A stretch of 62,925 bases of DNA, the filler included, from Collodictyon triciliatum (lineage: Eukaryota): the NCBI GenBank assembly GCA_043381765.1. It is 7 parts of 7 records of this genome, joined end to end, with 100 filler letters (N's around TTAATTAATTAA, not from the genome) between each part and the next. Parts side by side here need not be neighbours in the genome. Positions count along the whole stretch, not along the records: positions 59,220 to 62,925 come from JBHJMP010000114.1; 6 more parts are not named here. One strand, 5' to 3'. Positions 31,116 to 62,925 of the stretch are shown here, in pieces (position 1 is the stretch's first letter; the number at the start of each line of letters is the position of its first letter). The position numbers and the translations under genes are program-made. The notes below the pieces were generated by a model. It searched no databases. It saw nothing but the letters and a program-made list of their open reading frames with translations, and was not told the origin of the DNA.

Positions 31116-41985
<10,870 letters not shown>

Positions 41986-42329
41986 CGGAGCCGCCGCCAC
42001 TCTTAACCACTGAACCCTTTTCTTTCCTTTGCCGTCTCGCTTTCCCTGTCAAAATAAAAAAATACGAGAAACGAAGGGAGAAAAAAAAACCAAAGATAAA
42101 TGCTCCAATCGAATACAAACGAACGCGTTTCTTTGACACTGTTTGACTCGCGCGTTGACACACGTTCCTTTCATACCCTTTTGCCAAGTATCTTCAGCAG
42201 ACGCACACGGTCCCTTCACTAGAAAAAAAGAAAAGAAAAGAAAAGAAAAAGAAACAAACGAAACAAACGAAAACAAAAGAAACAAACAAACAAACAAACA
42301 AAAAATAAAAAAAACCAGAGGCCAAGCCG

Positions 42330-45300
42330 ATGGAATCCAACACACGCCTGCGCATCACCTCCACAAGCTCGTCCACGGCGTCCATGGAACTCGGACAGGC
42401 TCTCGGGCTGGACTCACAGACGGATCGGACGGCCTACAAACACTCGCTTCCCCGCGGGTTTGCGCTTTCGCCCACACGGGGCGGCACAAACGCGCTCTTT
42501 GCCACCGCTTCGGCGCCAAACGTCCTTTCCGAGCCGACCGTAACAAAGCCAACATCCGCAGCAAAGACAAAGACAAATACAAAGACACAGACACCAACAC
42601 AGACACTGCCGGCTTCAGCAACGAGCGACCCGCACAGCGCAGCCGCCTCGCCCGAGTCGCAGAGGCCCGTTGCTGCGTTGGCTCGCCTGCGCAAAACTCT
42701 GTCGCCGACCCGCTCGCTCAACTCAGTGATTCCCGCCCAGACAACCTCAGAATCCGCCGCCTCCTCAAACCGCCGATCGGCCGGGCACGCAAGTGCGGGT
42801 CTGCAGTCAACGCCGGTCGGTGCGCCTGCTGCAAAGGCTTCGGCTCTGCTTCTGCAAAAGGGCCCGTTTGCTCTCGAGTGTGCGCAGCTTTGCGTCACAG
42901 GCGGTGCTTTCCTCCATGGCAGAGTTCATCTGCGCTCGGCTCGTGGTTTCCTCGCTCACAAAGTTTCTCTGCGTGTCTACGGTTTGTTCCTATCTGTATT
43001 TTATTGGATATGTTTGTGATTTTTTTTTTGTGTGTGTTTGTAATTATGATTGAGATTATGGTTCTGGTTCTGGTTCTGTTTTGTTTTTATTGACTGTTAC
43101 TACATTCATGTCTCCTCTGATATGGCGCTCATCGTTGTATAGACAACGCATCCGATACTGCTGCACATGTCCAGCACGAAGTTGACCTTTACAGCAGCGG
43201 TCATCCGGAGCGAGAGATAGCTATTGCACCTGGGATATATGCCTTTCCTTTCAGGGTTGCTGTATGATACCTCTCTTACATCTTTTCTTCGTATCTATTA
43301 TCCGTTATTTTCTTTACATTTTTGCTGCATGGATTCATTCATAAATAGTTTCGAATTGAATGACCTAATTCTTTTCATACTACGAATCATTTGTAATCAT
43401 TCTATTTGATTTGATTTTACAACTTCGTTTTCGCTGGGCCATTTACATTCCTTTACTAATCGCTACATTGTTGTTTTTTTTCTTTTCATTATCTCGTAAC
43501 TATTGTAATCAAATAAAATAAAAACATCTAGTTCCCTCCAAATATACCCCCTTCGTTTCATCACTCTGGAATAGGAAAGTAGAAATTCATAGATCTATTT
43601 TATTATGTATATACCAAATATATGCACACAGTGTAATCATTAAAGCATCTATACAGCTTTTTTTTTATTTGTATGTACCAATTCTATCCGATCTATCTCT
43701 TCCTATGTCTCTTATTTTGATAATCATGGCGATAGGGACGCTCAATTCCGGTCTCTAGCTCGCTGCATATATACTGCAGAAGCAATAATGACAAGATTAG
43801 ATGGCACAATTGTTCATTCGAGGTACGCTATAATATGTGAAACTATATCCCGCAATATGTAATGCTTTCATGCGAGTGATACCTTCAGGGTCCAAAAAGT
43901 CTCCATTCACATTCATATCTCTCACTATTTTGTTTATTCGGCTTTTGTTATATGCTTTCATTTTCACGAAAGCTCAAGCAACGTCGTCTGTATTGGAGAG
44001 CTTCTTGATTCAAACAATTTAGCGCTAAAGTCATCTCCGTCTTTCACATTCAAACAAGATATCCAAGCACCCTTCACTGTTGATGCCACCATATTCGACG
44101 TAACTTTTTAATTGCATCTTTTCTCCAAATCTTTGTTATGAGTACATTTCTCTATTTTATTTGTATTGTCAAAACCAATTGTAAGATTGAATCTTACAAC
44201 CTTCTTTTATTTATAAAATATTGATATTTTCTTTTATTATTACCTTACACATAATTTTATGCACTACATTGTGCAGCGAGCTGGCTATACTTGGGATGGG
44301 AATCCTCAATATGGGTTATGTTGTCGGGTAGCCGATGAGATCTCTGTACGTTTTCGGGTCAGTAACTTTCCTTGGGAGACTGTCGAAACCCAACAGCAAC
44401 AACAAAGTCAGCAAGATGTAAACTCTGTTAAAGTGTGTATTAGTTCTCTCGCTTTTATAAAAATTTTAACTTTTTTTTTTCGAAAAATCAAAATCTATAA
44501 TTTGAATTTCTTTTGCATTTTTTCAATTGTTTTAACAAATAAATAAAGTAAAAAAATAAAAATAAAAAAGGCTATAATAGCTTGTCCATGAAATTATTTT
44601 GTATAGATTATCTTCTCTGTATCCTTGGAGCGTACTGTTTCAGTTGAATCATCGGAAACATCAACAACCGAGAAGTGTACTGCTATAGATATTGTGAGTT
44701 CAAAAGAATCCGGTAAGATATATATTTTTCTACCTCCATTTAATGACTGCGAAGGATTCATACAAGTTATCCATACTTTAACCACCCAATAACATATTGT
44801 TCTTTCTTCAGGCCTCACACCAGTTTTTGTACTTTTTTTTAATGCACAACTTCCAATCAATTTAGTTATGCACGCTTTATGTCGAGATGACAGCATGCAA
44901 CAAGACATAAGTTTCTTTATCGGAGACTGTGTAATAAAGTCAAAAAGTGATTTGGAGTGTGAAAATCCAAGTAATCACATATTCACACCCACTGTCCAAC
45001 AAAGTTCGAATTTTAAAGTGTCATATTCACTTGTTGCAACTGCAAAATGGGGCGACAAATTTTATCGTGGAACTTTCCCTGTGACTATATTTCAATCAGA
45101 GTTTTATCGCAGTCTCGTGGAGTTGGTAGACTTTTTTTTTAACCCATTATCTCATTCATCGATAGTTATTTATTTGTTAATTCATTAAAAATGCGTCGAT
45201 ACCTGTACGAGCAATCTACTGGAATACTTTTTATGTGTTTGTCTTTTTCTTTTCTTTTCTTTTCTTTTCTTTTCTTTTCTTTTCTTTTCTTTTCTNNNNN

Positions 45301-47449: not shown

Positions 47450-48333
47450 TTCTACGATATCTTCCTGGTCTTTACAAGTTTCTGGAAGATGAGGCCTATC
47501 GCTACACTAGTAACTCCCCTCCTTCGGTCAAGCCTCCAACTGAAGTCCCGTTATTATTCAACATCGCGTTATTTTACCACGTCTATCCGAGAGAAGCAAA
47601 AAGTAAGTCCAATCGTCGCGCCCGATCCTGTTTTTACCGATTTGATAGATAGATACAAGCAAATGAATACCTCGGATTTCCATCTTCCCTCAACTTTCAA
47701 TATTACGAGTTATCCTCACAGACAACTTTAACTCCTATTTTTTCTAATGGATGCACCAAAGTTCTACCAACTTTCAGTGGACGCATACAGACTTCAGACC
47801 GATGAGGCTTACAAGTTTCAAGGGCGACAAGAAGGCATATATGCCTGGCTAGCTTCTCCTTGTGTAAGTCCCTTTGTCATCTCCAACTGTCTTCACACCT
47901 TTCTTTGCTTCGCACTTTGAGACGGCTATTCATATGCCCCGATGCAGCGCAAGGCCGATGATGCCAACAATCCTGTAAATCATTTTGCGAGCTTTCTCAA
48001 CTCGTTGAAGCATCGAAATGTTCTCCCGTCATGGTGGACTAGCTCAGACGACACCGAAATTTCTGAATACGCTAAGGTTCTCAATTTTTTCTTCTGTTAT
48101 ATTGCTCCTTTCAGTTTGGGTAAATGGTGAGGTTTTGGCTTAGGTTTGCCGGCGTTCGTTTGCTTAAAATCTCAAGTTTAACAAATATTTTTACCTAATA
48201 TTCCCAAAACTCGACATTCCCTCAAAGCCCATGGTACTTTATGCGCTGGAGCGCTCAGACCTGATGGACGTTGATGGGAATCAGACGGAGCGCTTTGTGT
48301 CTGTCAAATCGTTTATGGAGGCACTGAGGTAGA
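47450..48333 (+). CDS. Spliced gene or gene remnant of unknown function; 5' end unresolved
   Basis: Exon-like open segments with GT donors: YLPGLYKFLEDEAY...YPREAK, FYQLSVDAYRLQTDEAYKF, FLNSLKHRNVLPSWW...YAK and LYALERSDL...EALR*. Confidence 0.4.
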
Positions 48334-48869
48334 GGGTTTCTGTGTCTCTGCCTNNNNNNNNNNNNNNNNNNNNNNNNNNNNNNNNNNNNNNNNNNNNNNN
48401 NNNNNNNNNNNNNNNNNNNNNNNNNNNNNNNNNNNNNNNNNNNNNNNNNNNNNNNNNNNNNNNNNNNNNNNNNNNNNNNNNNNNNNNNNNNNNNNNNNNN
48501 NNNNNNNNNNNNNNNNNNNNNNNNNNNNNNNNNNNNNNNNNNNNNNNNNNNNNNNNNNNNNNNNNNNNNNNNNNNNNNNNNNNNNNNNNNNNNNNNNNNN
48601 NNNNNNNNNNNNNNNNNNNNNNNNNNNNNNNNNNNNNNNNNNNNNNNNNNNNNNNNNNNNNNNNNNNNNNNNNNNNNNNNNNNNNNNNNNNNNNNNNNNN
48701 NNNNNNNNNNNNNNNNNNNNNNNNNNNNNNNNNNNNNNNNNNNNNNNNNNNNNNNNNNNNNNNNNNNNNNNNNNNNNNNNNNNNNNNNNNNNNNNNNNNN
48801 NNNNNNNNNNNNNNNNNNNNNNNNNNNNNNNNNNNNNNNNNNNNNNNNNNNNNNNNNNNNNNNNNNNNT

Positions 48870-51007
48870 TCACATCAATTGTTCCCTTCCTTGAGGAGCA
48901 AAACTAGTTTTGTTGGTTTGTTGACTTTAAAGGAAATCTCAAAAACTTGGTTCATGAGAATTGGAATAAAAAAATGAAACGAAGCAATTTTTTACCACCA
49001 GCGAGGGCTTTCCATTATTGTGTTCCAGGATGATATCCAAAACTTTATAGTTTAAATTCTTATCAAACATATAGTAATTTTTGGCAGAGCTGATATCATA
49101 CCCGATTACTTTGTGAGTAAGTTTTACTGGTCTGTAGTTCTCTCCAAATCTGATATTTTAATGTTATATTCAAGAATTGTGTAAATCTCAAAAAAAAAAA
49201 ACACAAAATATACTTTTTTGTTGCAACTGTAGGTGCTCCAATCCAAGTGGCAATATCATCGATGTTTGGAATTGTTGCCGATAAAGCTACAAATCTTAGA
49301 GAAGATATAGGTAATCCATGGTCCACATGTGCCATTTTCATCGATTTTAGTCTTCCTATTACGACCTTTGAAATATTTGCGTTTTTTTTAAAAAAAAAAA
49401 ATCTCTCGAACTAAAATATTTTTATTTAAAACAAATAAACCTCTAAAGTCGAGCCTCTCGTGTCTTGTTTTAAGAAATATATAAGTCGAATATTAAAAAT
49501 TTTAAAGTGAGGCGATATTTTTTTCGTTTTTTTATTTTGAAAAAAATCTATAGATACCAGTTAGCATGTGAACTTCATCAATGCATACAAGACCCACTGA
49601 ACATAAAACTGAATAACGTTGGTGATTATTCGACTTTCGTGTAGTTACATCTAACTTCTCAGGAGTTGTTACTCTACATAAGAAACCCCATAGGAGTAAA
49701 ATCAGAAAAGTAGAAAAAAAATTAGGGATATCATTGATTAAAATACATTATATCAGCATCTCTCAAACTCGAAAAATCCTTGACAGAACTGTCTTGGTCA
49801 CTGGTAAGCTCTTGGCCTATGAAACACGCAAATTCAAATCTCATTACTCATTACAAAAAAAAAAAAAAAAGAAAAAAAAAGGGAAGTATGTAATGTATCT
49901 TTAATGCATTTATATGTCAAATTTTACATTTCACGCCAAGTTTGTAGAATTTTTCTCTCCACTCAACCAACTTCTGCTGACATAGAGCCTAGTTTAATAG
50001 ATTTTGATCATGAAATCAAATATTAATTGGTTTAAATATTTAGGCTTTAATCTACCTTGATTGGTGCGAGATATATGACTTTGATATTTTGTCTTGTTCT
50101 ATTCCGATGTTCAAGGATTCGTAGTATAGCTAACTCGAATATCACTGGAATGTATAATAATGAATTTCCCAAAGTTATTGGATTAATCACCTGCTTTTCT
50201 AGGCATACTTATCGTATTATTTTCATATATGATAGGATATCCTTTCAGTAGTATGGATTTAATGCATGTGTTAAGGAAAGAGTTATTTACCTGTCTTCCC
50301 ACTTCCTGTTGGAGCTTTTTTTTTTTTTGAAAGAGGAGGGGGAGGCATTTAGATCGTTAATAATTTATAATTTGTTCATTTTTTTTCTTTGCTCCAATTA
50401 CCAATATTGTCAATTCCCGACGATATAGGCTGATCGGAATTGTTGTATAGTTACCTGAAACGACGACATTGCAATCATCTTGGTATACCATATTTGCGCA
50501 CTCACTCTGCATGCGATTAAAATATTCGAAAGAAAATACGGTAGCATTTTCATGGATGACAGAATCAACCCTCACTAACTCCCTGGAGTGTGCACCAATA
50601 TCTACTGCACTCCTAATTTCGGCTGTCACGTGTGTCTTCCCCAGAACACTCGGGAAAGATGTACTATTCGTTCTCTGTGGAGGCGATGAGTTTGAAACAA
50701 AGAAATTTCCCATCTCTTCGTCTGACGATTCTGAATCAAAAATCAACTTTTCTTGTACCAAATCATCGTCTGATAGGAAGTTCTCTGTGTTCTGAGACTC
50801 TTGGAAAAAATTGTGAGTCGTTGACAATCCTATGTCCTTTCTCTGATAGGTATCATGTACATTGAAGGGATGCACCCGATTCTGGGTGTGAGGATAGCTC
50901 AGTATATCGGTCACCCCTCCATTTTGGGTTTGCGTCAGCCAAGGAAGCAGCAAACTATACAAAGTAGGGCCCACGTGGCATTTATTGCATAAGTAAACGA
51001 CTGCCAT
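48870..51007 (-). CDS. HFM1: HFM1/MER3 meiotic DExH helicase, N-terminal part; start uncertain, runs into an N gap
   Basis: FNRMQS, APTGSGKT, IFELAILR, YLAPIKALC, TTPEKLD, IDEVHML, RFVALSATIPN, FGENYRPVKL, MFDKNLNYK and GKPSLV follow the Mer3 subfamily pattern. Confidence 0.88.
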
Positions 51008-54900: not shown

Positions 54901-57180
54901 NNNNNNNNNNNNNNNNNNNNNNNNNNNNNNNNNNNNNNNNNNNNNNNNNNNNNNNNNNNNNNNNNNNNTTTTCTTTTCTTTTCTTTTCTTTTCTTTTCTT
55001 TTCTTTTCTTTTCTTTTCTTTTCTTTTCTTTTCTTTTCTTTTCTTTTCTTTTCTTTTCTTTTTTTTTGGTGGTTAATATTTTGCTTTTTCTTTGTCTATA
55101 TGTTTCTTCCGCTTGTGTATCTCATTCATTTGATATAGGCTCACCACCAAACAACACAGGAAGGTGACGAAGTTTCCACACAACCATACTTCGCACGAAC
55201 TAGGATGGATAACCCACAGGGCAAACCCTTATTGAATGATGATGAATTAGTTGCAAATCGTATTAGAGATATAATGGATGGAATACACGAAGACCCAATA
55301 TTGGGTTTGTTAAAAAGTAACTCCCGACCGAATAGCCAGTCAGCACACCACGAGCCTCCGGTTAATGTACCCAAGGGGGATGTACGAGCCTCAATCCTTC
55401 TTTCTTTCTTTTTTTCTTTTTTTCATTTTTTCATTTTCTTTTTATTTATTTTTGTTATTTTCCTTTACAAGAAAAAAACATCAAGAAGAGAAAAACAGAT
55501 CATGATTAAGAACATTTATATTATGAACTCAGTTGCGCATTTACACACTATGATATATACACAAAGTTGTATTATACAGTTTTTTTTACTGAGCTACAAT
55601 ACGCTACTAGAACCAAGCATCACTAAAAACATCAAAAAATGACGAGAGGATACTTTCTCCTGCCAAGGAAATAAACTCATCAACCAACTCACAGAAGTTG
55701 CACAAAAATGCAGCAACAGTAGCACATGCCCATTCAAGAGACCCGATGGTGGACGATTTCTTCGATGCAGAGTTTGAAAGTCCGCCAAGAAAAGAATCTC
55801 GCGACAAATCCTTGGACTCCTGTTTGGAATCACATTCCAAGGGAGCTGTAACAAAGTTTATCGACGAACCAACCCAACGATACGAGCAAACAAATATTCC
55901 CAAGGTTTTATTCTTTCCTTTTCCTTTTCTTTTCTTTTTTCTATTTTCATGATATTTATAAGAGCAAGGAAGAAAAGAAAACGGACATCATCAGGTGGGT
56001 ATCTCATGTGTGTAATATAAGAATATCCTTACATCAAAATGAGTAGAGTGACAGATTTTCAAGCATAGAAACTCATCACCACACCATCCAGAACCCAGAG
56101 GCCAGACACGACCAAACCCTGCATTACAATGTCCAAGAGATACAGCAGCGAACACTGGACTCAGCCAGGCAGCTTAAAAGCGAAGGGATTGGGCAAAGCC
56201 AGAGAGAATTCCGGTCGCTGCGAAGCTCGCAGCAAAACCCGAGCGCACCGCGACGAGCTAAAAAGCGCAAGGTGTCTGCAACATGCTTCGACCTTGCATC
56301 TGTGGATATGTACGCGTATGTCCCACTGGCCGAGAATCTTTGGGGGAGTCTGAACGAGGACGGACACGGGCAGGAATGTGAGAGCGGCGCAGCAGAGCCG
56401 AGAGCCCAGCGACAATCGCACATTCAGGACGTTCGTGTGGTTGGGCGCCTCGATTCCCCAGACGTTTTCATCGTGCAGCTCCTCTCCAGAGACGGCGCCC
56501 TTCTGTGCTGCGTGAATGTCTGCCGAATCCACGAGCGGCAGGTCTTTGCCTCGTACGCCACACGACTGCCTACGGCTCTGCAGCCCTTGCGCCCTGCACT
56601 TGTGCTGGACAGAGAAGTCTGCGGGTTGCAGGGCCCGGACTCGCTCGGATGGATAACACGATGGGCGTGGCTATGGGCCGCACACGGGTTCGACCTGCAA
56701 GTCAGCCACAGCCACAGCCACAGCCACAGCCATAGCCATAGCCACAGCCACAGCCACATTGCCGGTGAAGATGCAGATGCAGACGAGGCAACTGTCGCAG
56801 TCTCGAAGCTGGCCACAGACGTCAAGGGCTACGGGCTTCAGCAGGTCGCACAGGTTTTGCAGAGGGTCTGGCATCTCGTGCGCCAGGACTCCCGCCTCCT
56901 CGCAGCTGACTCGCTGGACGCTGCCCAAAGAGCGTCTCTGGTGCTGAGCACTCGCCCGCAGATGCTGGACTCGTATCTCCGCGCAAAGGCCAGGGATGAA
57001 GCGCAAACGCAGCGCTCACACACGCATGAGCAGGTCCGCGACTTGGTGCTGGCTTTTGTTCGGCAGGCCGATGGTGCGGCAGCCTCGGACTTGGCCGGAA
57101 TGATGTGTCTCCACGGCCACCACGTCTTCCGCCCGCTGTGCAGCCTTCAGTTTGCATCCAACCAGCCCTCTGATTTGTAG
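51985..57180 (+). CDS. PMS1: MutL homologue of the PMS1/Mlh2 (non-endonuclease) type; first exon(s) missing
   Basis: NSLDSGA, VRDDGPGI, TSKL, GFRGEAL, GTTV..F.NLPVR, INERPV and DVNISPNKR. The C-terminal domain lacks DQHA(X)2E(X)4E (NVCRIHERQVF) and ends in CLHGHHVF. Confidence 0.75.
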
Positions 57181-57502: not shown

Positions 57503-58979
57503 TTATTTGGACGTAAACTTTTTCATAACAGACTGCAGAATGCGTGCATCATTTCCAATGCTGTTTGCCAACACAGAAATGCTGTCGGAGCCTGTCAGGA
57601 CTTCGATTGTTTGTGTGTATGGGTTGTATCGCACGGAAAACGGGCGGTTGAGGGTCTCGCCAAATTGAATCATTTGCTCCTACAGCAATATTTGTGTNNN
57701 NNNNNNNNNNNNNNNNNNNNNNNNNNNNNNNNNNNNNNNNNNNNNNNNNNNNNNNNNNNNNNNNNNNNNNNNNNNNNNNNNNNNNNNNNNNNNNNNNNNN
57801 NNNNNNNNNNNNNNNNNNNNNNNNNNNNNNNNNNNNNNNNNNNNNNNNNNNNNNNNNNNNNNNNNNNNNNNNNNNNNNNNNNNNNNNNNNNNNNNNNNNN
57901 NNNNNNNNNNNNNNNNNNNNNNNNNNNNNNNNNNNNNNNNNNNNNNNNNNNNNNNNNNNNNNNNNNNNNNNNNNNNNNNNNNNNNNNNNNNNNNNNNNNN
58001 NNNNNNNNNNNNNNNNNNNNNNNNNNNNNNNNNNNNNNNNNNNNNNNNNNNNNNNNNNNNNNNNNNNNNNNNNNNNNNNNNNNNNNNNNNNNNNNNNNNN
58101 NNNGAAGCTTTCTGCCACAAAGTAGATGGGCTGGTAGGTGGTGATGGGATACGGCTGAGTTCCCGTCACAAACGGATCAAAAGGCTTCAGAACCGGCTCC
58201 TTTGACTGGCAATACTGCAAAGCGGCGGGCAACACAGTGTCAGCAAGTGCATCGCACCCCACAGGGCAAAGGACTGGGCACTGTGAAAGCAAAGTAAAAC
58301 CACAAGGGAAACAATACCTCCAGCTCTCCAAAGCTCGACAACAGCCCGGCGCCGTAAGCCCGCAACTGGTTCTCCTGCTTGCACAGCCCAAACTCAACGG
58401 TGAACCAGTAGCACTGCCGGCAGATATGGACATGCATACACACAAATGGTTGGTTAGCTGCATCCATGGGATGGTGGCAAGACGGCATGAAATATAATTG
58501 TAGCGTCTCAAGGTCTTCTACTTCTTTTTTTCTTTGGTTGGTGGGTTGAGCGAATGATTAGTGCGGTAAAAAGAGAGAAAATAAGCGGGGACGCACAGTG
58601 GCCAGCTTGTTGATGTCCTCGTCACTGACGCCCAGAGATGCCAATCCAATGGCCTGGCTGAAGTCGGCAAAGTCAGGGTCGGCATAGAGTGGCACATGAC
58701 CGAGAAGTTCGTGGCAGATATCACTGTAGAGTGGGCAGAGTTTGTTTCCATCACGTGAGAAGAAATAATTAGCGTGAAAGAAAAAAAAGTTAGAGGAAAG
58801 AATATATTTCATCGGTGCGATGGCTTTGGTAATGGATATTCACGGTTCAGGTGTGTAGAGCGGGGTGGAGTGGTGGCGGATGTACTGCGTGGAGTGGAAG
58901 ACCCGGAAAGCTAGTCCGTTCAGAAAGTCACGAGAGGAGAGGAGTCCGGCAACTGGGCGAATGGTAAATCCTGTGGATT
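57503..58979 (-). CDS. PAH: Aromatic amino-acid hydroxylase, most likely phenylalanine-4-hydroxylase; 3' part only
   Basis: [76 protein letters not shown] and [17 protein letters not shown]. Stop at 57503. Confidence 0.92.
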
Positions 58980-59344: not shown

Positions 59345-61007
59345 CCATATTTTTTTCTTTGGGCTCCTCATAAGGGTCGGTGCAGAATCGACCCATCCCT
59401 TCTTTGTAGAGAAATATTTTCAAGGGCTCACAAGACATGATAAGAGCATATATTCGCATATCAAACTTGTATCCATCGATCAACAAAGGCTTTCTGACGT
59501 ATTCTTGGGCCACTGCACTCATGAAGACACCACTTTCAGGGATATTCAGGTCGTCAAACTAGGTCGTAATTTTTAATGACTTGAATTGGGTTTGTTATTC
59601 TATTTAATTTTATTTGGTAATGTATGATTACCCTTCTTCGCTGAAGCCTTTTTTTATAACATGAATAGAATAAAACATCACCTATTTTCATAGGAAAATA
59701 CAAATATAACAAAACTGAAAAAAAAAACCGGAATATAAATGTGACGAATCTGAAATATTAGTATCCTACCTTTCTCACGAGATAGATTCCTCTTCCTTGT
59801 GAACCTGCGTCAGGTTTTACAATATATACCCTTTTCTTCTTTCCACAAAGAACTTTTTTGAACTGTTGCAACCTGAATCAACACCACAAATGAAAGAATG
59901 TATTGACTATCTTGTATGGGTAGTATCTAGTTCATGTTTGGAATATAATAATAATGATAATAATAATAATAATTAGGGAAAATTATACTCTTGTGGAAGC
60001 AACCATGTCTTCGGTGTTATATTGTAATCATGGGGAAAAACTTTTTCCATTCTACGCAAGTTTCTTGCCATGTTCACTTTTCTGGAGATTTCAATTGTGC
60101 CGGGAAAATGATTGATTTTCTAAACAACAATCAGTGACACGTGATTGGGGGAAATGATGTAATGAGACATACTGTCCAGGAAAAGGAGTGAAAAGGAAAA
60201 GTATTTACAAGAAAAAGACATAAGAATATAATAACGTATGAATTATGACAATATGTTCATATAATGAATTATTGCAAAGATTGGAATATAGAGTAAATAG
60301 AAAAAAAGGAATGTATTCGCAAAGAAAAGTAATCAAACTAGAGAAGATGAGCATCTTGAATAACATATAAGGGGAGAGAGAGAGAGAGAGGAGAAAGGAG
60401 TACCTGATATCTTTTCAAATTCATCACTCTTTCAGTTGAAACAGATGTATCAGTCCAATAAAGTACCCAGTCCTCGTCGTCTCCTACTTCCTTCCAACCC
60501 ATTGCCGCTATACTACGACGTACTGCAAATAGTGTAAAAAAAATGTAGCTTCATCAATACCAGATGTAAAATATAGATTATTTTGGCATAAATATCGAGA
60601 CCACAGCTATACTATATCACACTCTATACTATTTGATACGATTAAAAAAAATGATGAAAAACTAGAGCTGTACTAAAAAAAGTATGAGGGATTTAGATCC
60701 ACCTTATAATATAATAGTAAGATTCCATCTAAAGCTGGACATAAAAATAACAAACCCCCCCCCCCCCCCCCCCCCCCCCCCCTCACCTGAAATCGCCACG
60801 AATCTGAGATTAATCGCCAGGTAAGAAAGCGATGCCACCTGCTGGATACACCACGCGGGAATGCGGGAAGCCGTGCTCTTTTTATTAGACTCTTGCGAAT
60901 ACACGANNNNNNNNNNNNNNNNNNNNNNNNNNNNNNNNNNNNNNNNNNNNNNNNNNNNNNNNNNNNNNNNNNNNNNNNNNNNNNNNNNNNNNNNNNNNNN
61001 NNNNNNA

Positions 61008-61095
<88 letters not shown>

Positions 61096-62164
61096 AAAGA
61101 AAAGAAAAAATAGAAGGGAAAAAGAAGGAAAAGGAAGGAGAAAAGAAGGGGAAAAGAAGGGGAAAAGAAGGGGAAAAGAAGGGGAAAAGAAGGGGAAAAG
61201 AAGGGAAAAAGAAGGGAAAAAGAAGGGAAAAAGAAGGGAAAAAGAAGGGAAAAAGAAGGGAAAAAGAAGGGAAAAAGAAGGGGAAAGGAAGGGAAAAGGA
61301 AGGGAAAAGGAAGGGAAAAGGAAGGGAAAAGGAAGGGGAAAAAGAAGGGGAAAAAGAAGGGGAAAAAGAAGGGGGAAAAGAAGGGGAAAAGAAGGGGAAA
61401 AGAAGGGGAAAAGATGGGGAAAAGATGGGGAAAAGAAGGGGAAAAGAAGGGGAAAAGAAGGGGAAAAGAAGGGAAAAAGAAGGGGAAAAGAAGGGAAAAA
61501 GAAGGGAAAAAGAAGGGAAAAAGAAGGGAAAAAGAAGGGGAAAAGAAGGGGGAAAGAAGGGAAAAAGAAGGGGAAAAGAAGGGGGAAAGAAGGGGAAAAG
61601 AAGGGGAAAAGAAGAAAAAAAGAATAGAAGGGAAAGAAGGAAAAGAAGAAGAATAAAAAGAAAAGCTGGAGCCAGCGCTGCACTGACCCTCTTGGGCCCC
61701 GCATCTGCCTTTGGGATCAGACGGAGGGACTTTGACTTTGCCACGCGAGCGAGTGCCGGCTCGTCCCCACGGACCTCGTCGTCCTCGTTGCTGTTATCGT
61801 TGTCGCCTTCCTCGTCCGCCTCCGCCTCGTCCGCCTCGTCCGCCTCCTCATCGCCCTCTGCGCCGCCACCGATGCTGCTGCAGACGCGACGGCCCCCGGG
61901 CGGGCGGACAAACGGGGTGATGAGCGACTGCGTGTTGGGCGGCGCGCGGGGCAGCGGCCGGGGCACCAGCTTCCGGGCCCCCGTCTGGGATCCGCTGTCC
62001 GAGCGCCCCGATCCGCTGTCCGAGCCTGCCTCGCTGCCGGAGTCGCTGCCCGGCCCCGCTCTCTCCGCCCTGCCGCTCGATGCCATCGGCCGCTGCGCTC
62101 CTCTCTGCTTCCCTGCGCTTGCTTTGCGTGAGACTCTTGCGCTCGCCCGCGCGTGTTGATTCAT
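59345..62164 (-). CDS. Tubulin polyglutamylase, TTLL6/TTLL13-like; 3' end truncated
   Basis: WVLYWTD, KINHFPG, PKTWLLP, YIVKPDAGSQGRGI and QEYVRKPLLIDGYKFDMRIYAL...LYKEGMGRFCT. Probable ATG at 62164 opens a GC-rich first exon. Confidence 0.9.
61007..61660 (+). repeat. Near-pure polypurine tract: (AAAG)n followed by (AAGGGGAAAAG)-like repeats, in the first TTLL intron
   Basis: About 650 bp that is almost entirely A/G. Confidence 0.9.
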
Positions 62165-62189
62165 CTCTGGCAGACACAACGCGCTCTCT

Positions 62190-62345
62190 AATGGTCTTTG
62201 GCGCATCAGTGTCAAACTATTTAAATTCACCAGAAGGGGTATCCCAATCTTTCGACTGGTAAACCTGGTGTGCTAGTCTCCAAGGTCTCACCACTTCTTT
62301 CGTAAAGACTGTGTAGTGGTGAACGCTGCCAGGAAAGACCCAACA
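62190..62345 (-). ncRNA. Putative Fanzor omegaRNA scaffold and transposon 3' end
   Basis: Directly 3' of the Fanzor ORF. Minus-strand stems: UCACCACU/AGUGGUGA (62322-62288) with inner UCUUU/AAAGA; CACCAG/CUGGUG (62270-62228) enclosing CCAGUC-GAAA-GAUUGG; GGUCUUU (62340-62334) can pair with AAAGACC (62199-62193). Confidence 0.6.
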
Positions 62346-62353
62346 GCCTGTTT

Positions 62354-62826
62354 TTAAAAGAAAGGTGTATGCATTATTGAAAGGATTAAAAGAGCTTTGC
62401 TGAGTATATCATTATCGCTGTTTAAGTTCCTTGTCAAGAATACACTTTGTTTGCTTTCTGAGCGATTGCATTCTTTACATATGAGATTTCTATACACCTC
62501 TTTTGAATTTCCTTTCTGTTTTATATATTCCAGTTCCTTTTCGCAGTTGCAGCACATCTTGGAAGTTTTCAATTCATTTACACGTACTGTTTCAATTCGT
62601 TTGAATAGTATATTTTTCGTTATCCTCTTCCGGTTGTTGGCATAAAATGGTTCATCTGAGAATTTTTGCTCCAGTCTCCATACGCCAGTACAACGTCCTT
62701 GCCGAATGTCTTTTCGATTTAGCCCATAAACAATCGCTTCACTTCTTTTTGTATTAGCATACTGCCTCCATCTCATCTTTCGAAAAGTTACTTGTTTATA
62801 AAATCTGGAAAATTCTATGTGGTATC
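62354..62826 (-). pseudogene. Fanzor1-type (TnpB-derived) RNA-guided nuclease, C-terminal RuvC/zinc-finger fragment; frameshifted and 5'-truncated
   Basis: FYKQVTFRKMRWRQY...RSE, then a shifted frame IEKTFGKDVVLAYGDWSKNSQMNHFMPTTGRG*RK, then VNELKTSKMCCNC...LICKEC...TRNLNS (RuvC-II Glu, Cys4 finger, RuvC-III Asp changed to Asn). Intronless. Confidence 0.85.
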
Positions 62827-62871
62827 TTTTTTTTTCCTTTATTCGATTCAAAGTGTAGCGAGGTTATGCCA
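62827..62871 (-). mobile_element. Ultra-short retroposon-like element, full-length copy abutting the Fanzor fragment
   Basis: Exact 36-nt core plus A9 on the minus strand. No flanking TSD found. Confidence 0.85.
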
Positions 62872-62925
62872 TACAAAGGGGCGGGATGGGAGCGCATGGG
62901 AGAGAGCAAACGCGAGTAGGAGAAG

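What the first reader, a model, noticed from the sequence alone, without database searches (positions are those of the whole stretch)
62354..62826. Fanzor1-type RNA-guided nuclease relic
Seen: an intronless fragment with the YGDWS...MPT.G.G motif hidden in a frame the ORF track misses, followed by VNE..TSK.C..C and C..C...R(N).N. Established: these motifs match eukaryotic TnpB-derived Fanzor proteins. This copy is dead (two frameshifts, an internal stop, RuvC-III Asp to Asn, no N-terminus). Inference: the genome hosts or hosted a Fanzor family, and intact members may exist elsewhere in it.
Basis: partly seen in the sequence, partly recalled or inferred. Interest (0 to 1): 0.78.

Follow-up and report, generated by a model that had tools for sequence, protein, structure and literature searches.

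The report
Dead Fanzor1 nuclease gene fragment
This is the broken last quarter of a Fanzor1 gene, a transposon-borne RNA-guided DNA cutter found in eukaryotes and giant viruses; it is real but dead, and it belongs to a family that is already well described.

Summary
On the minus strand, 62291-62826 encodes, in two alternating frames, the C-terminal ~177 of ~648 residues of a Fanzor1 protein. It maps onto residues 472-642 of the intact relative P0086 with 108 of 171 aligned positions identical. P0086, P0002 and a family profile hit only the three Fanzor1 entries among solved structures. The repositioned RuvC-II glutamate and both CxxC pairs are kept. The RuvC-III Asp is Asn. There are two frameshifts and three in-frame TAA stops, not one.

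The copy breaks off at 62827, against the poly(A) end of an unrelated high-copy repeat. The window ends 98 bases further on, so a lost N-terminus cannot be told from a displaced one.

Freshwater and subsurface metagenome contigs 85-95% identical to the relic lack at least four of its lesions.

More distant intact relatives sit in 3.3-kb Tc1/mariner-type elements, many of them in giant-virus contigs.

No transposase, inverted repeat or guide-RNA structure is detectable here. The host genome is not held, so whether intact copies exist in it is untested.

Verdict: an ordinary pseudogene of a known family, of low interest.

The parts
62827..62925 (-). Unrelated high-copy repeat. Read on the minus strand it ends in AATAAAGG plus an A-run that directly abuts the relic. 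It marks the 5' break of the Fanzor copy and runs off the window end.
   Evidence: contigs in runs X1 and X11 match 62827-62917/62925 with 0 differences, at much higher summed depth than the relic. One is a 319-nt metatranscriptome contig that runs past the window end; its last 45 nt recur at 10893-10937, 12303-12347, 32554-32589 and 14163-14190 with unrelated flanks.
62741..62826 (-). Relic piece A (frame -3), the helical stretch before RuvC-II. It corresponds to P0086 residues 472-500.
   Evidence: 20 of 29 identical to P0086 and 22 of 29 to P0085; related contigs follow the window down to 62826-62828 and then continue with unlike sequence.
62735..62740 (-). Frameshift 1: one extra base in the window, moving the reading from frame -3 to frame -1.
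   Evidence: Searches show the frame change between pieces A and B. table 4: related contigs lack 1 nt at 62737 (X3 3 contigs, X6 1 contig) or at 62735 (X3 1 contig).
62719..62721 (-). In-frame TAA stop 1. The closest relatives have Lys at this position.
   Evidence: table 3: related contigs differ at 62720 and 62721 (X3 3 and 2 contigs, X6 2 and 2), so they carry no TAA there.
62623..62739 (-). Relic piece B (frame -1): the strand carrying YGDWS (62668-62682), the canonical RuvC-II position that holds Gly in Fanzors, and MPTTGRG (62623-62643). It corresponds to P0086 residues 501-542.
   Evidence: 60% identity to P0002 over 40 aa in frame -1; 26 of 42 identical to P0086.
62620..62622 (-). In-frame TAA stop 2. 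Relatives have Leu here.
   Evidence: table 3: 62621 T>A in X3 (1 contig) and X6 (1 contig), which gives a Leu codon on the minus strand.
62596..62616 (-). Frameshift 2, from frame -1 back to frame -3, near an A5 run. Its exact place is not resolved.
   Evidence: The single related contig across it (X3) differs by two 2-nt gaps, which does not give one frame either (table 4).
62291..62614 (-). Relic piece C (frame -3). It holds the alternative RuvC-II Glu (GAA, 62573-62575), the zinc finger CCNC (62543-62554) and CKEC (62468-62479), RuvC-III with Asn in place of Asp (AAC, 62426-62428), premature TAA stop 3 (62354-62356) and the C-terminal tail. It corresponds to P0086 residues 543-642.
   Evidence: 62 of 100 identical to P0086. 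table 3: all 12 listed contigs covering 62428 (X1 2, X3 2, X6 8) carry C on the plus strand, which gives an Asp codon.
62288..62290 (-). Stop codon at the position of the ancestral stop.
   Evidence: P0086 (648 aa) aligns to residue 642 at 62312, and the frame closes at 62288-62290.
62232..62287 (-). 3' non-coding tail, running to the probable right end of the former element (inferred).
   Evidence: table 8: X1 record 1 (151 nt) matches 62232-62348 and then goes on unlike; summed depth starts in the 62212-62237 bin. In the intact elements L001, L002 and L011 the shared sequence ends about 48 nt after the stop. No inverted repeat or RNA structure was recognised here.

Best explanation
This is a non-functional pseudogene fragment: the last ~27% of a Fanzor1 gene.

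The ancestral protein was a ~650-residue nuclease guided by an RNA (the omegaRNA) transcribed from the transposon's own right end. It had a single RuvC active site built from three parts: Asp in a DPG motif, a repositioned Glu six residues before a CxxC...CxxC zinc finger, and Asp in an RD motif. It probably rode in a cut-and-paste DNA transposon, as its more distant intact relatives do in Tc1/mariner-type elements.

The copy in the window cannot make a nuclease:

- it lacks everything upstream of residue ~472, meaning the WED and REC domains and RuvC-I;
- it carries two frameshifts and three stop codons;
- it has Asn at the RuvC-III Asp.

The anatomy, the homology and the lesions are shown. 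The RNA-guided mechanism of the ancestor is taken from the published family. The transposon carrier, and the reading that a poly(A)-ended repeat inserted into the gene, are inferred.
For: Homology:
- The 169-aa frame finds 71 proteins at E<=1e-3, the best at 9.9e-25. Full-length relatives of 590-705 aa align at their residues ~445-600.
- P0085 matches at E 1.7e-39.
- The three relic pieces map contiguously onto P0086 residues 472-500, 501-542 and 543-642, with 108 of 171 positions identical.

Family:
- P0002 hits 8gkh (SpuFz1) at 9.2e-37, 9cf0 (PpFz1) at 7.2e-34 and 9cer (GtFz1) at 7e-16, and nothing else at E<=1.
- P0086 hits 9cer at 2.1e-28, 9cf0 at 2.7e-24 and 8gkh at 3.7e-23; the next hit is a myoglobin at 0.38.
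- Profile A2, whose first row is the relic's piece C, hits 8gkh at 6.4e-64, 9cf0 at 6.3e-59 and 9cer at 3.7e-45; the next hit is at 0.26.

Motifs: E-x6-CxxC is present in the window. This is the Fanzor-type RuvC-II arrangement described in PMC10711439 (passages read) and PMC10530073 (passages read).

Lesions. Asp is present in 19 of 20 aligned relatives.

Lesions private to this copy: related metagenome contigs carry an Asp codon at 62426-62428 (12 of 12 listed contigs), no TAA at 62719-62721, a Leu codon at 62620-62622, and one base fewer at 62735-62737.

Carrier: L001, L002 and L011 share a 3.3-kb element with ~29-nt terminal inverted repeats, a DDE_3 transposase (E 1.3e-13) and a 634-aa Fanzor. 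Of the 80 metagenome loci, 12 have a related transposase.
Against: - Direct family evidence from the window alone is weak. Pfam PF07282 scores 21 bits, below its 26.3-bit cut-off. The single frame finds no Fanzor in the PDB. Membership therefore rests on relatives.
- No transposase remnant (best E 0.02) and no inverted-repeat match (score 15, equal to the shuffle mean) tie this copy to a Tc1/mariner carrier.
- The elements with a known carrier are only ~40-50% identical to the relic.
- No sequencing run held half or more of the stretch's words (0 of 20 holding rows), so the lesions could not be checked against the source's own reads.
- The N-terminus may lie beyond the window end.
Confidence: 0.9

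Rival explanations
1. The fragment is Fanzor1-derived but reached the genome from a giant virus (Nucleocytoviricota), by viral integration or virus-to-host transfer of a virus-borne transposon. It would then not come from a long-resident eukaryotic transposon family.
For: - The nearest Atlas clusters to P0086 are 92-100% viral, most commonly Nucleocytoviricota.
- 346 of 513 candidate stretches in IMG/VR encode relatives, many of them in giant-virus MAG records.
- L002 lies in a 254,533-nt contig that IMG/VR also holds as a giant-virus MAG (L081), next to RNR small subunit and DUF5755 genes.
- Bao and Jurka 2013 (PMC3627910; abstract and passages read) described Mariner-borne Fanzor1 in algal giant viruses and proposed that viruses spread Fanzors.
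Against: - The window shows no viral hallmark gene in the ORFs scanned (11 ORFs). It looks like ordinary eukaryotic chromosome: a KDM5-like gene and a Kelch-motif ORF.
- The closest relatives, P0085 and P0086, sit on 1.2-2.6-kb contigs of unknown origin.
- An exact-peptide search with P0086 found nothing in IMG/VR.
- The same element family also occurs beside a mitochondrial-carrier gene in L001.
Confidence: 0.25
2. The gene is intact in the organism, and the frameshifts and stops are assembly or sequencing errors or unrecognised introns.
For: The assembly is a draft with many N gaps at microsatellites. Frameshift 2 lies near an A5 run.
Against: - There are three separate TAA codons where relatives have Lys, Leu and Lys.
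- There is a missense change at a catalytic Asp.
- Frameshift 1 does not lie in a homopolymer.
- All homology is lost upstream of 62827, where an unrelated repeat begins.
- 16 of the 22 relatives' loci examined carry one uninterrupted ORF of 619-700 aa, so introns are not expected.
Confidence: 0.03
3. The relic has been exapted, for example as promoter or 5'-UTR sequence of the GC-rich gene that starts about 200 bases downstream on the same strand, or as a non-coding RNA derived from the former guide-RNA region.
For: It lies directly upstream of, and in the same orientation as, an ORF beginning near 62086. The 3' tail at 62232-62350 is more GC-rich than the coding part.
Against: - Rfam gave no match.
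- The RNA fold of 62200-62420 has a z-score of only -0.84.
- The lesions fit neutral decay.
Confidence: 0.04

Closest known systems
Fanzor1 RNA-guided endonucleases with solved structures: Spizellomyces punctatus Fz1 (PDB 8gkh), Parasitella parasitica Fz1 (9cf0) and Guillardia theta Fz1 (9cer)
   Same: The relic's full-length relatives align with these proteins over nearly their whole length. The relic keeps the Gly at the canonical RuvC-II position (YGDWS), the alternative Glu six residues before the first CxxC, and the C4 zinc finger.
   Different: Only the last ~177 codons remain. The reading frame is broken five times. The RuvC-III Asp is Asn. No guide-RNA structure can be recognised.
Mariner/Tc1-borne Fanzor1 elements, including those inside algal giant viruses (PGv-1 and relatives; Bao and Jurka 2013, PMC3627910)
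   Same: Relatives at 40-50% identity (L001, L002, L011) have exactly this layout: a DDE_3 transposase and a Fanzor1 gene between ~29-nt inverted repeats, one of them in a giant-virus MAG contig.
   Different: The window copy has no detectable transposase, inverted repeat or target-site duplication. Its own subfamily's carrier is unknown.
Pfam PF26935 (DUF8286) proteins, mostly annotated 'transposase' in Nucleocytoviricota
   Same: All 120 listed long relatives of P0085 carry this precomputed domain. The nearest Atlas clusters carry it in 74-95% of members.
   Different: The Pfam copy searched here did not report this family for P0002 or for the L002 Fanzor. Which part of the protein it covers, and whether the relic retains any of it, was not tested.
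Fanzor2 and prokaryotic TnpB (IS607 and IS200/IS605)
   Same: They share the RuvC plus zinc-ribbon core. Pfam PF07282 (Cas12f1-like TNB) gives a sub-threshold match to the relic.
   Different: No Fanzor2, TnpB or Cas12 structure was hit at E<=1 by P0002, P0086 or the profile. Relatives are ~620-700 aa, far longer than TnpB as I recall it (about 400 aa; recalled, not from a call here).

Membership tests
Fanzor1 | Sequence homology to experimentally characterised Fanzor1 proteins, to the exclusion of Fanzor2, TnpB and Cas12 | tested here: met
   The link is transitive: window to P0085 at E 1.7e-39, and P0085 to P0086 at 84% identity. P0086, P0002 and profile A2 hit only the three Fanzor1 entries in the PDB. 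The window frame alone hits none.
Fanzor1 | RuvC-I catalytic Asp in a DPG motif (PMC10711439) | tested here: not met
   The region is absent from the window. No match to relatives' residues 1-440 was found anywhere in the window. The motif is present in relatives: P0086 at position 364, and 16 of 22 loci examined have a single DPG.
Fanzor1 | Canonical RuvC-II Glu replaced, with an alternative Glu six residues before the first CxxC (PMC10711439, PMC10530073) | tested here: met
   Gly occupies the canonical site in YGDWS (62668-62682). GAA at 62573-62575 is followed by six residues and then CCNC. Glu is present in 20 of 20 aligned relatives.
Fanzor1 | C4 zinc finger (CxxC...CxxC) preceded by [TS][TS]xx (Bao and Jurka 2013 motif, PMC3627910) | tested here: met
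   TSKM-CCNC lies at 62543-62566 and CKEC at 62468-62479. PF07282 gives E 3.7e-4, below its cut-off.
Fanzor1 | RuvC-III catalytic Asp in an RD motif | tested here: not met
   The window has RN: AAC at 62426-62428. Of 20 aligned relatives, 19 have RD; P0007 also has RN.
Fanzor1 | Complete open reading frame of about 600-700 residues | tested here: not met
   About 177 codons remain, with two frameshifts and three TAA stops.
Fanzor1 | Guide (omega) RNA encoded at the 3' end of the gene and the right end of the element | tested here: inconclusive
   There is no Rfam match. The fold of 62200-62420 has a z-score of -0.84. No RNA data from the organism were available.
Tc1/mariner-type Fanzor1 carrier element | DDE transposase, terminal inverted repeats and a TA duplication around the nuclease gene | tested here: not met
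   The transposase of L002 finds nothing in the window better than E 0.02. The right inverted repeat of L001, L002 and L011 matches no better than shuffles, with 147-178 of 300 shuffles reaching the score. The upstream side lies outside the window.

The most novel reading that the evidence does not exclude
The relic would be the footprint of a Fanzor1 lineage still active in this organism or in giant viruses that infect it. Copies 85-95% identical that lack its lesions circulate in freshwater communities, and the wider subfamily (DUF8286) is mostly borne by Nucleocytoviricota. The locus would then record virus-to-host transfer of an RNA-guided nuclease, and would point to intact, untested Fanzor1 enzymes such as P0086.
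Probability: 0.2. Interest if true: 0.45.

Novelty: new member of a known kind. Interest (0 to 1): 0.18.

Why it matters
The relic shows that a Fanzor1-bearing mobile element once entered this eukaryote's genome. It also leads to an intact close relative (P0086, 648 aa) and to a large, mostly giant-virus-borne Fanzor1 subfamily. The relic itself has no activity. Fanzor1 in Mariner-type elements and in giant viruses has been in print since 2013, so the finding adds one locus rather than a principle.

Tried and rejected
- Direct Pfam scan of the two frames: only PF07282, below its cut-off; nothing for the 32-aa frame.
- NCBIfam: only chance-level matches far below their cut-offs.
- PDB search with the 169-aa frame alone: 4 chance hits at E 0.45-4.5, no nuclease.
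- Own-genome search: no genome is held.
- Earlier findings of this scan, by place and by sequence: nothing.
- Rfam on 62100-62925: 0 matches at E<=1.
- RNA fold of the 3' region: z-score -0.84, with 45 of 200 shuffles folding as well.
- Inverted repeat of the L001-type element against the window's 3' flank: no better than shuffles.
- Transposase remnant in the window: none.
- Direct blastn of the relic against the 80 metagenome loci: only two coding matches at ~65% identity, so no DNA-level relative with flanks was obtained.
- P0086 exact-peptide scan of IMG/VR: 36 stretches matched a pattern, none a relative.
- The 36-nt repeat motif in IMG/VR: 0 matches.
- Sequencing runs: 0 of 20 holding rows held half or more of the words, best share 0.15. 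The source's own reads were therefore not examined.
- The one metatranscriptome run laid (X11) covered only 62827-62925 and not the relic. This says nothing either way about transcription.
- Host lineage: the KDM5-like ORF gave only 'Eukaryota' with mixed phyla in the Atlas and a single 27%-identical long relative. It stays unresolved.
- Frameshift 2 could not be judged from the related contigs. The one contig across it has two 2-nt gaps, which do not give a single frame.

Full report
**1. What is in the sequence**

On the minus strand of 62288-62863 the stop-to-stop table shows a 169-aa open frame (62354-62863) and, in another frame, a 32-aa stretch (62620-62718).

- YGDWS...MPTTGRG in frame -1;
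- VNELKTSKMCCNC, CKEC and TRNLNS in frame -3.

The region is AT-rich. It lies about 200 bases upstream of, and in the same orientation as, a GC-rich ORF that begins near 62086.

**2. Is it more than chance?**

By itself the fragment is only weakly recognisable. Pfam PF07282 (Cas12f1-like TNB domain) scores 21 bits against a 26.3-bit cut-off, E 3.7e-4. NCBIfam gives nothing meaningful. A search of solved structures with the single frame gives four chance hits.

An exhaustive HMMER search of 1.84 billion representatives is decisive. It finds 71 proteins at E<=1e-3, 12 at E<=1e-10 and none at E<=1e-30. The best are P0001 (9.9e-25) and P0002 (4.5e-19). The full-length hits, of 590-705 aa, align at their residues ~445-600.

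In the reverse direction, 70 of the 71 proteins give tblastn matches in the window (P0062 gave none). All 120 matches fall within 62303-62854. They always show the same pattern: frame -3, then frame -1 between 62730 and 62611, then frame -3 again. Nothing else in the 62.9 kb resembles these proteins.

**3. Which family**

- P0002 (634 aa) matches Spizellomyces punctatus Fanzor1 (8gkh) at 9.2e-37 over almost its whole length. It also matches Parasitella parasitica Fanzor1 (9cf0) at 7.2e-34 and Guillardia theta Fanzor1 (9cer) at 7e-16, and nothing else at E<=1.
- A word-indexed search found a much closer in-frame relative, P0085 (223 aa, E 1.7e-39). Through it came the full-length P0086 (648 aa, 84% identical to P0085).
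- P0086 has a single DPG at position 364 and the string E-x6-CxxC...CxxC...RD. It again hits only the three Fanzor1 entries: 9cer 2.1e-28, 9cf0 2.7e-24 and 8gkh 3.7e-23, with the next hit a myoglobin at 0.38.
- A profile whose first row is the relic's last piece gives 8gkh 6.4e-64, 9cf0 6.3e-59 and 9cer 3.7e-45, with the next hit at 0.26.
- No Fanzor2, TnpB or Cas12 chain appears in any of these searches.

The relic's three pieces map contiguously onto P0086 residues 472-500, 501-542 and 543-642. In total 108 of 171 aligned positions are identical (63%). Against P0085 the figure is 108 of 162 (67%).

The published criteria are a DPG motif at RuvC-I and a glutamate moved to six residues before the first CxxC (PMC10711439, passages read; PMC10530073, passages read). 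There is also the older motif [TS][TS]xx-C4 finger-RD (PMC3627910, abstract and passages read). The relic meets these where it still has sequence:

- Gly at the canonical RuvC-II site;
- Glu at 62573-62575, six residues before CCNC;
- both CxxC pairs present.

**4. How it is broken**

Relative to P0085 and P0086 and to a 20-protein alignment:

- (a) Everything upstream of residue ~472 is missing from the window.
- (b) One extra base near 62735-62740 shifts the frame.
- (c) TAA at 62719-62721 stands where relatives have Lys.
- (d) TAA at 62620-62622 stands where relatives have Leu.
- (e) A second shift between 62596 and 62616 returns to the first frame.
- (f) AAC (Asn) at 62426-62428 replaces the RuvC-III Asp. 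Of the 20 aligned relatives, 19 have Asp; P0007 also has Asn.
- (g) TAA at 62354-62356 stands where P0085 and P0086 have Lys. Recognisable coding sequence continues to a stop at 62288-62290, which matches the end of P0086.

**5. Evidence from public runs**

No run held half or more of the stretch's sampled words; the best share was 0.15 (0 of 20 holding rows). The source's own reads could not be examined. Laying the contigs of four runs at 85% likeness or better gave two results.

First, short contigs from subsurface, freshwater and lake metagenomes match 62232-62828 at roughly 85-95% identity. These are other copies of the same element family. Where they are listed:

- all 12 contigs covering 62428 carry the base that gives an Asp codon;
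- contigs covering 62720 and 62721 differ there, so they have no TAA (X3 3 and 2 contigs, X6 2 and 2);
- contigs covering 62621 give a Leu codon (X3 1, X6 1);
- several contigs lack one base at 62737 or 62735 (X3 3 and 1, X6 1).

At least four of the lesions are thus private to the window's copy. The one contig across frameshift 2 has two 2-nt gaps, which do not yield a single frame, so that lesion cannot be judged.

Second, these contigs follow the window up to 62826-62828 and then continue with different sequence. Read by eye in the relic's frame, that continuation stays open and resembles P0085 just upstream of the point where the window's homology stops.

**6. What abuts the break**

From 62827 to the window end the sequence is something else. 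Read on the minus strand it ends in AATAAAGG plus nine A, directly against the Fanzor remnant.

- Contigs in X1 (91 nt) and in the metatranscriptome run X11 (319 nt, running beyond the window end) match it with no difference. Its summed depth is many times that of the relic.
- Its last 45 nt recur at 10893-10937, 12303-12347, 32554-32589 and 14163-14190 with unrelated flanks.
- It has no Rfam match and no exact match in IMG/VR.

The simplest reading is that a poly(A)-ended interspersed repeat, possibly a retroposon, is inserted into or replaces the upstream part of the gene. That is an inference. The window stops 98 bases further on, so a displaced N-terminus cannot be told from a lost one.

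**7. Relatives and their carriers**

Of 22 loci examined, 16 have one uninterrupted ORF of 619-700 aa with a single DPG. The other six are short or cut.

L001, L002 and L011 share a 3.3-kb element at 73-80% identity, bounded by ~29-nt terminal inverted repeats. It carries a divergently oriented 346-aa DDE_3 transposase (PF13358, E 1.3e-13, with an HTH_28 domain) and a 634-aa Fanzor. The shared sequence ends about 48 nt after the stop. Of the 80 loci, 12 contain a related transposase.

L002 lies in a 254,533-nt contig that IMG/VR also holds as a giant-virus MAG (L081). It sits beside a ribonucleotide reductase small subunit and a DUF5755 gene. L001 lies beside a mitochondrial-carrier gene, and its transposase is split into pieces.

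In IMG/VR, 346 of 513 candidate stretches encode relatives. The Atlas clusters nearest to P0086 are 92-100% viral, most commonly Nucleocytoviricota. They are annotated 'transposase' and carry PF26935 (DUF8286), as do all 120 listed long relatives of P0085.

This layout is in print. Bao and Jurka 2013 described Mariner-borne Fanzor1 in eukaryotes and in algal giant viruses. Jiang et al. 2023 list Mariner/Tc1 among the Fanzor1 carriers.

**8. What the window lacks**

- The L002 transposase finds nothing better than E 0.02 in the window.
- The L001-type inverted repeat matches the 3' flank no better than shuffles do: 147-178 of 300 shuffles reach the score.
- The 3' region folds no better than shuffles, z -0.84.
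- Eleven other ORFs of the window show no viral hallmark. The window otherwise looks like a microsatellite-rich eukaryotic chromosome, with a KDM5-like gene and a Kelch-motif ORF.
- The host lineage could not be resolved.

The probable right end of the former element is near 62232. There one related contig stops matching and depth begins. That is about 56 nt after the ancestral stop, similar to the 48 nt in the intact elements. This rests on very little.

**9. Mechanism**

The ancestral gene encoded an RNA-guided double-strand DNA endonuclease. Its guide RNA comes from the element's right end, and it has a single RuvC site with the repositioned glutamate. This is taken from the published work on the family and was not tested here.

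The copy in the window is non-functional. It has no RuvC-I, WED or REC domains, no continuous frame, and Asn at RuvC-III. Confidence that it is a Fanzor1 pseudogene fragment is 0.9.

Open questions:

- whether it came from a resident transposon or from a giant virus (0.25 for the latter);
- whether the N-terminus survives beyond the window;
- whether intact copies exist in the same genome.

**10. Verdict**

The object is an ordinary decayed copy of a known family, so interest is low (0.18). Its main use is as a pointer to an intact close relative (P0086) and to a large, mostly virus-borne Fanzor1 subfamily.

Noticed in passing
window 62827-62925; also 10893-10937, 12303-12347, 32554-32589, 14163-14190: A short interspersed repeat. 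It is a 36-nt core followed by an A-run, with AATAAA just before the A-run, and its flanks are unrelated at every copy. The copy next to the relic extends at least 99 nt. It is identical to abundant contigs in lake and subsurface metagenomes and to a 319-nt metatranscriptome contig. It has no Rfam match and no match in IMG/VR. It may be a retroposon 3' end; its nature is unresolved.
   Followed up: partly
L001 174-3503, L002 1092-4407, L011 1086-4406: A 3.3-kb Tc1/mariner-type element with ~29-nt terminal inverted repeats, a DDE_3 transposase and a 634-aa Fanzor1. It is present at 73-80% identity both in a 254-kb giant-virus MAG contig and beside a mitochondrial-carrier gene. In L001 the transposase is split into pieces while the Fanzor ORF is intact.
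   Followed up: partly
protein P0007 (cluster of 4 members): Another relative also has Asn instead of Asp at the RuvC-III position (TRNLNS). The same substitution therefore occurs independently, or that copy too is decayed.
   Followed up: no
protein P0001 (136 aa, from a 582-nt contig of an NCBI-held assembly): The closest representative hit is itself a gene call on a frame-shifted copy. Its first ~35 residues match the window's frame -2 and not the Fanzor frame, while its last ~100 residues are 62-65% identical to the relic. At least one other decayed copy therefore exists in a deposited assembly.
   Followed up: partly
window 9557-9653 and 10255-10351: A 97-nt direct repeat at 75% identity lies inside two neighbouring minus-strand ORFs that encode similar peptides. 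This looks like a tandemly duplicated exon or gene.
   Followed up: no
window, many places (e.g. 3971-4320, 9680-9900, 35816-36120, 48330-48870, 57690-58130, 60890-61620): Long microsatellite and low-complexity arrays are interrupted by runs of N. Overall GC is about 35%, with GC-rich islands of 58-63% (1001-2000, 42001-43000, 56001-57000). This is a draft eukaryotic assembly with gaps at repeats.
   Followed up: no
window 61682-62086 (-): A GC-rich ORF begins about 200 bases downstream of the relic on the same strand. It has only a sub-threshold match to the PCNA-associated factor domain (E 0.0025, 19 bits against a 23.4-bit cut-off).
   Followed up: no
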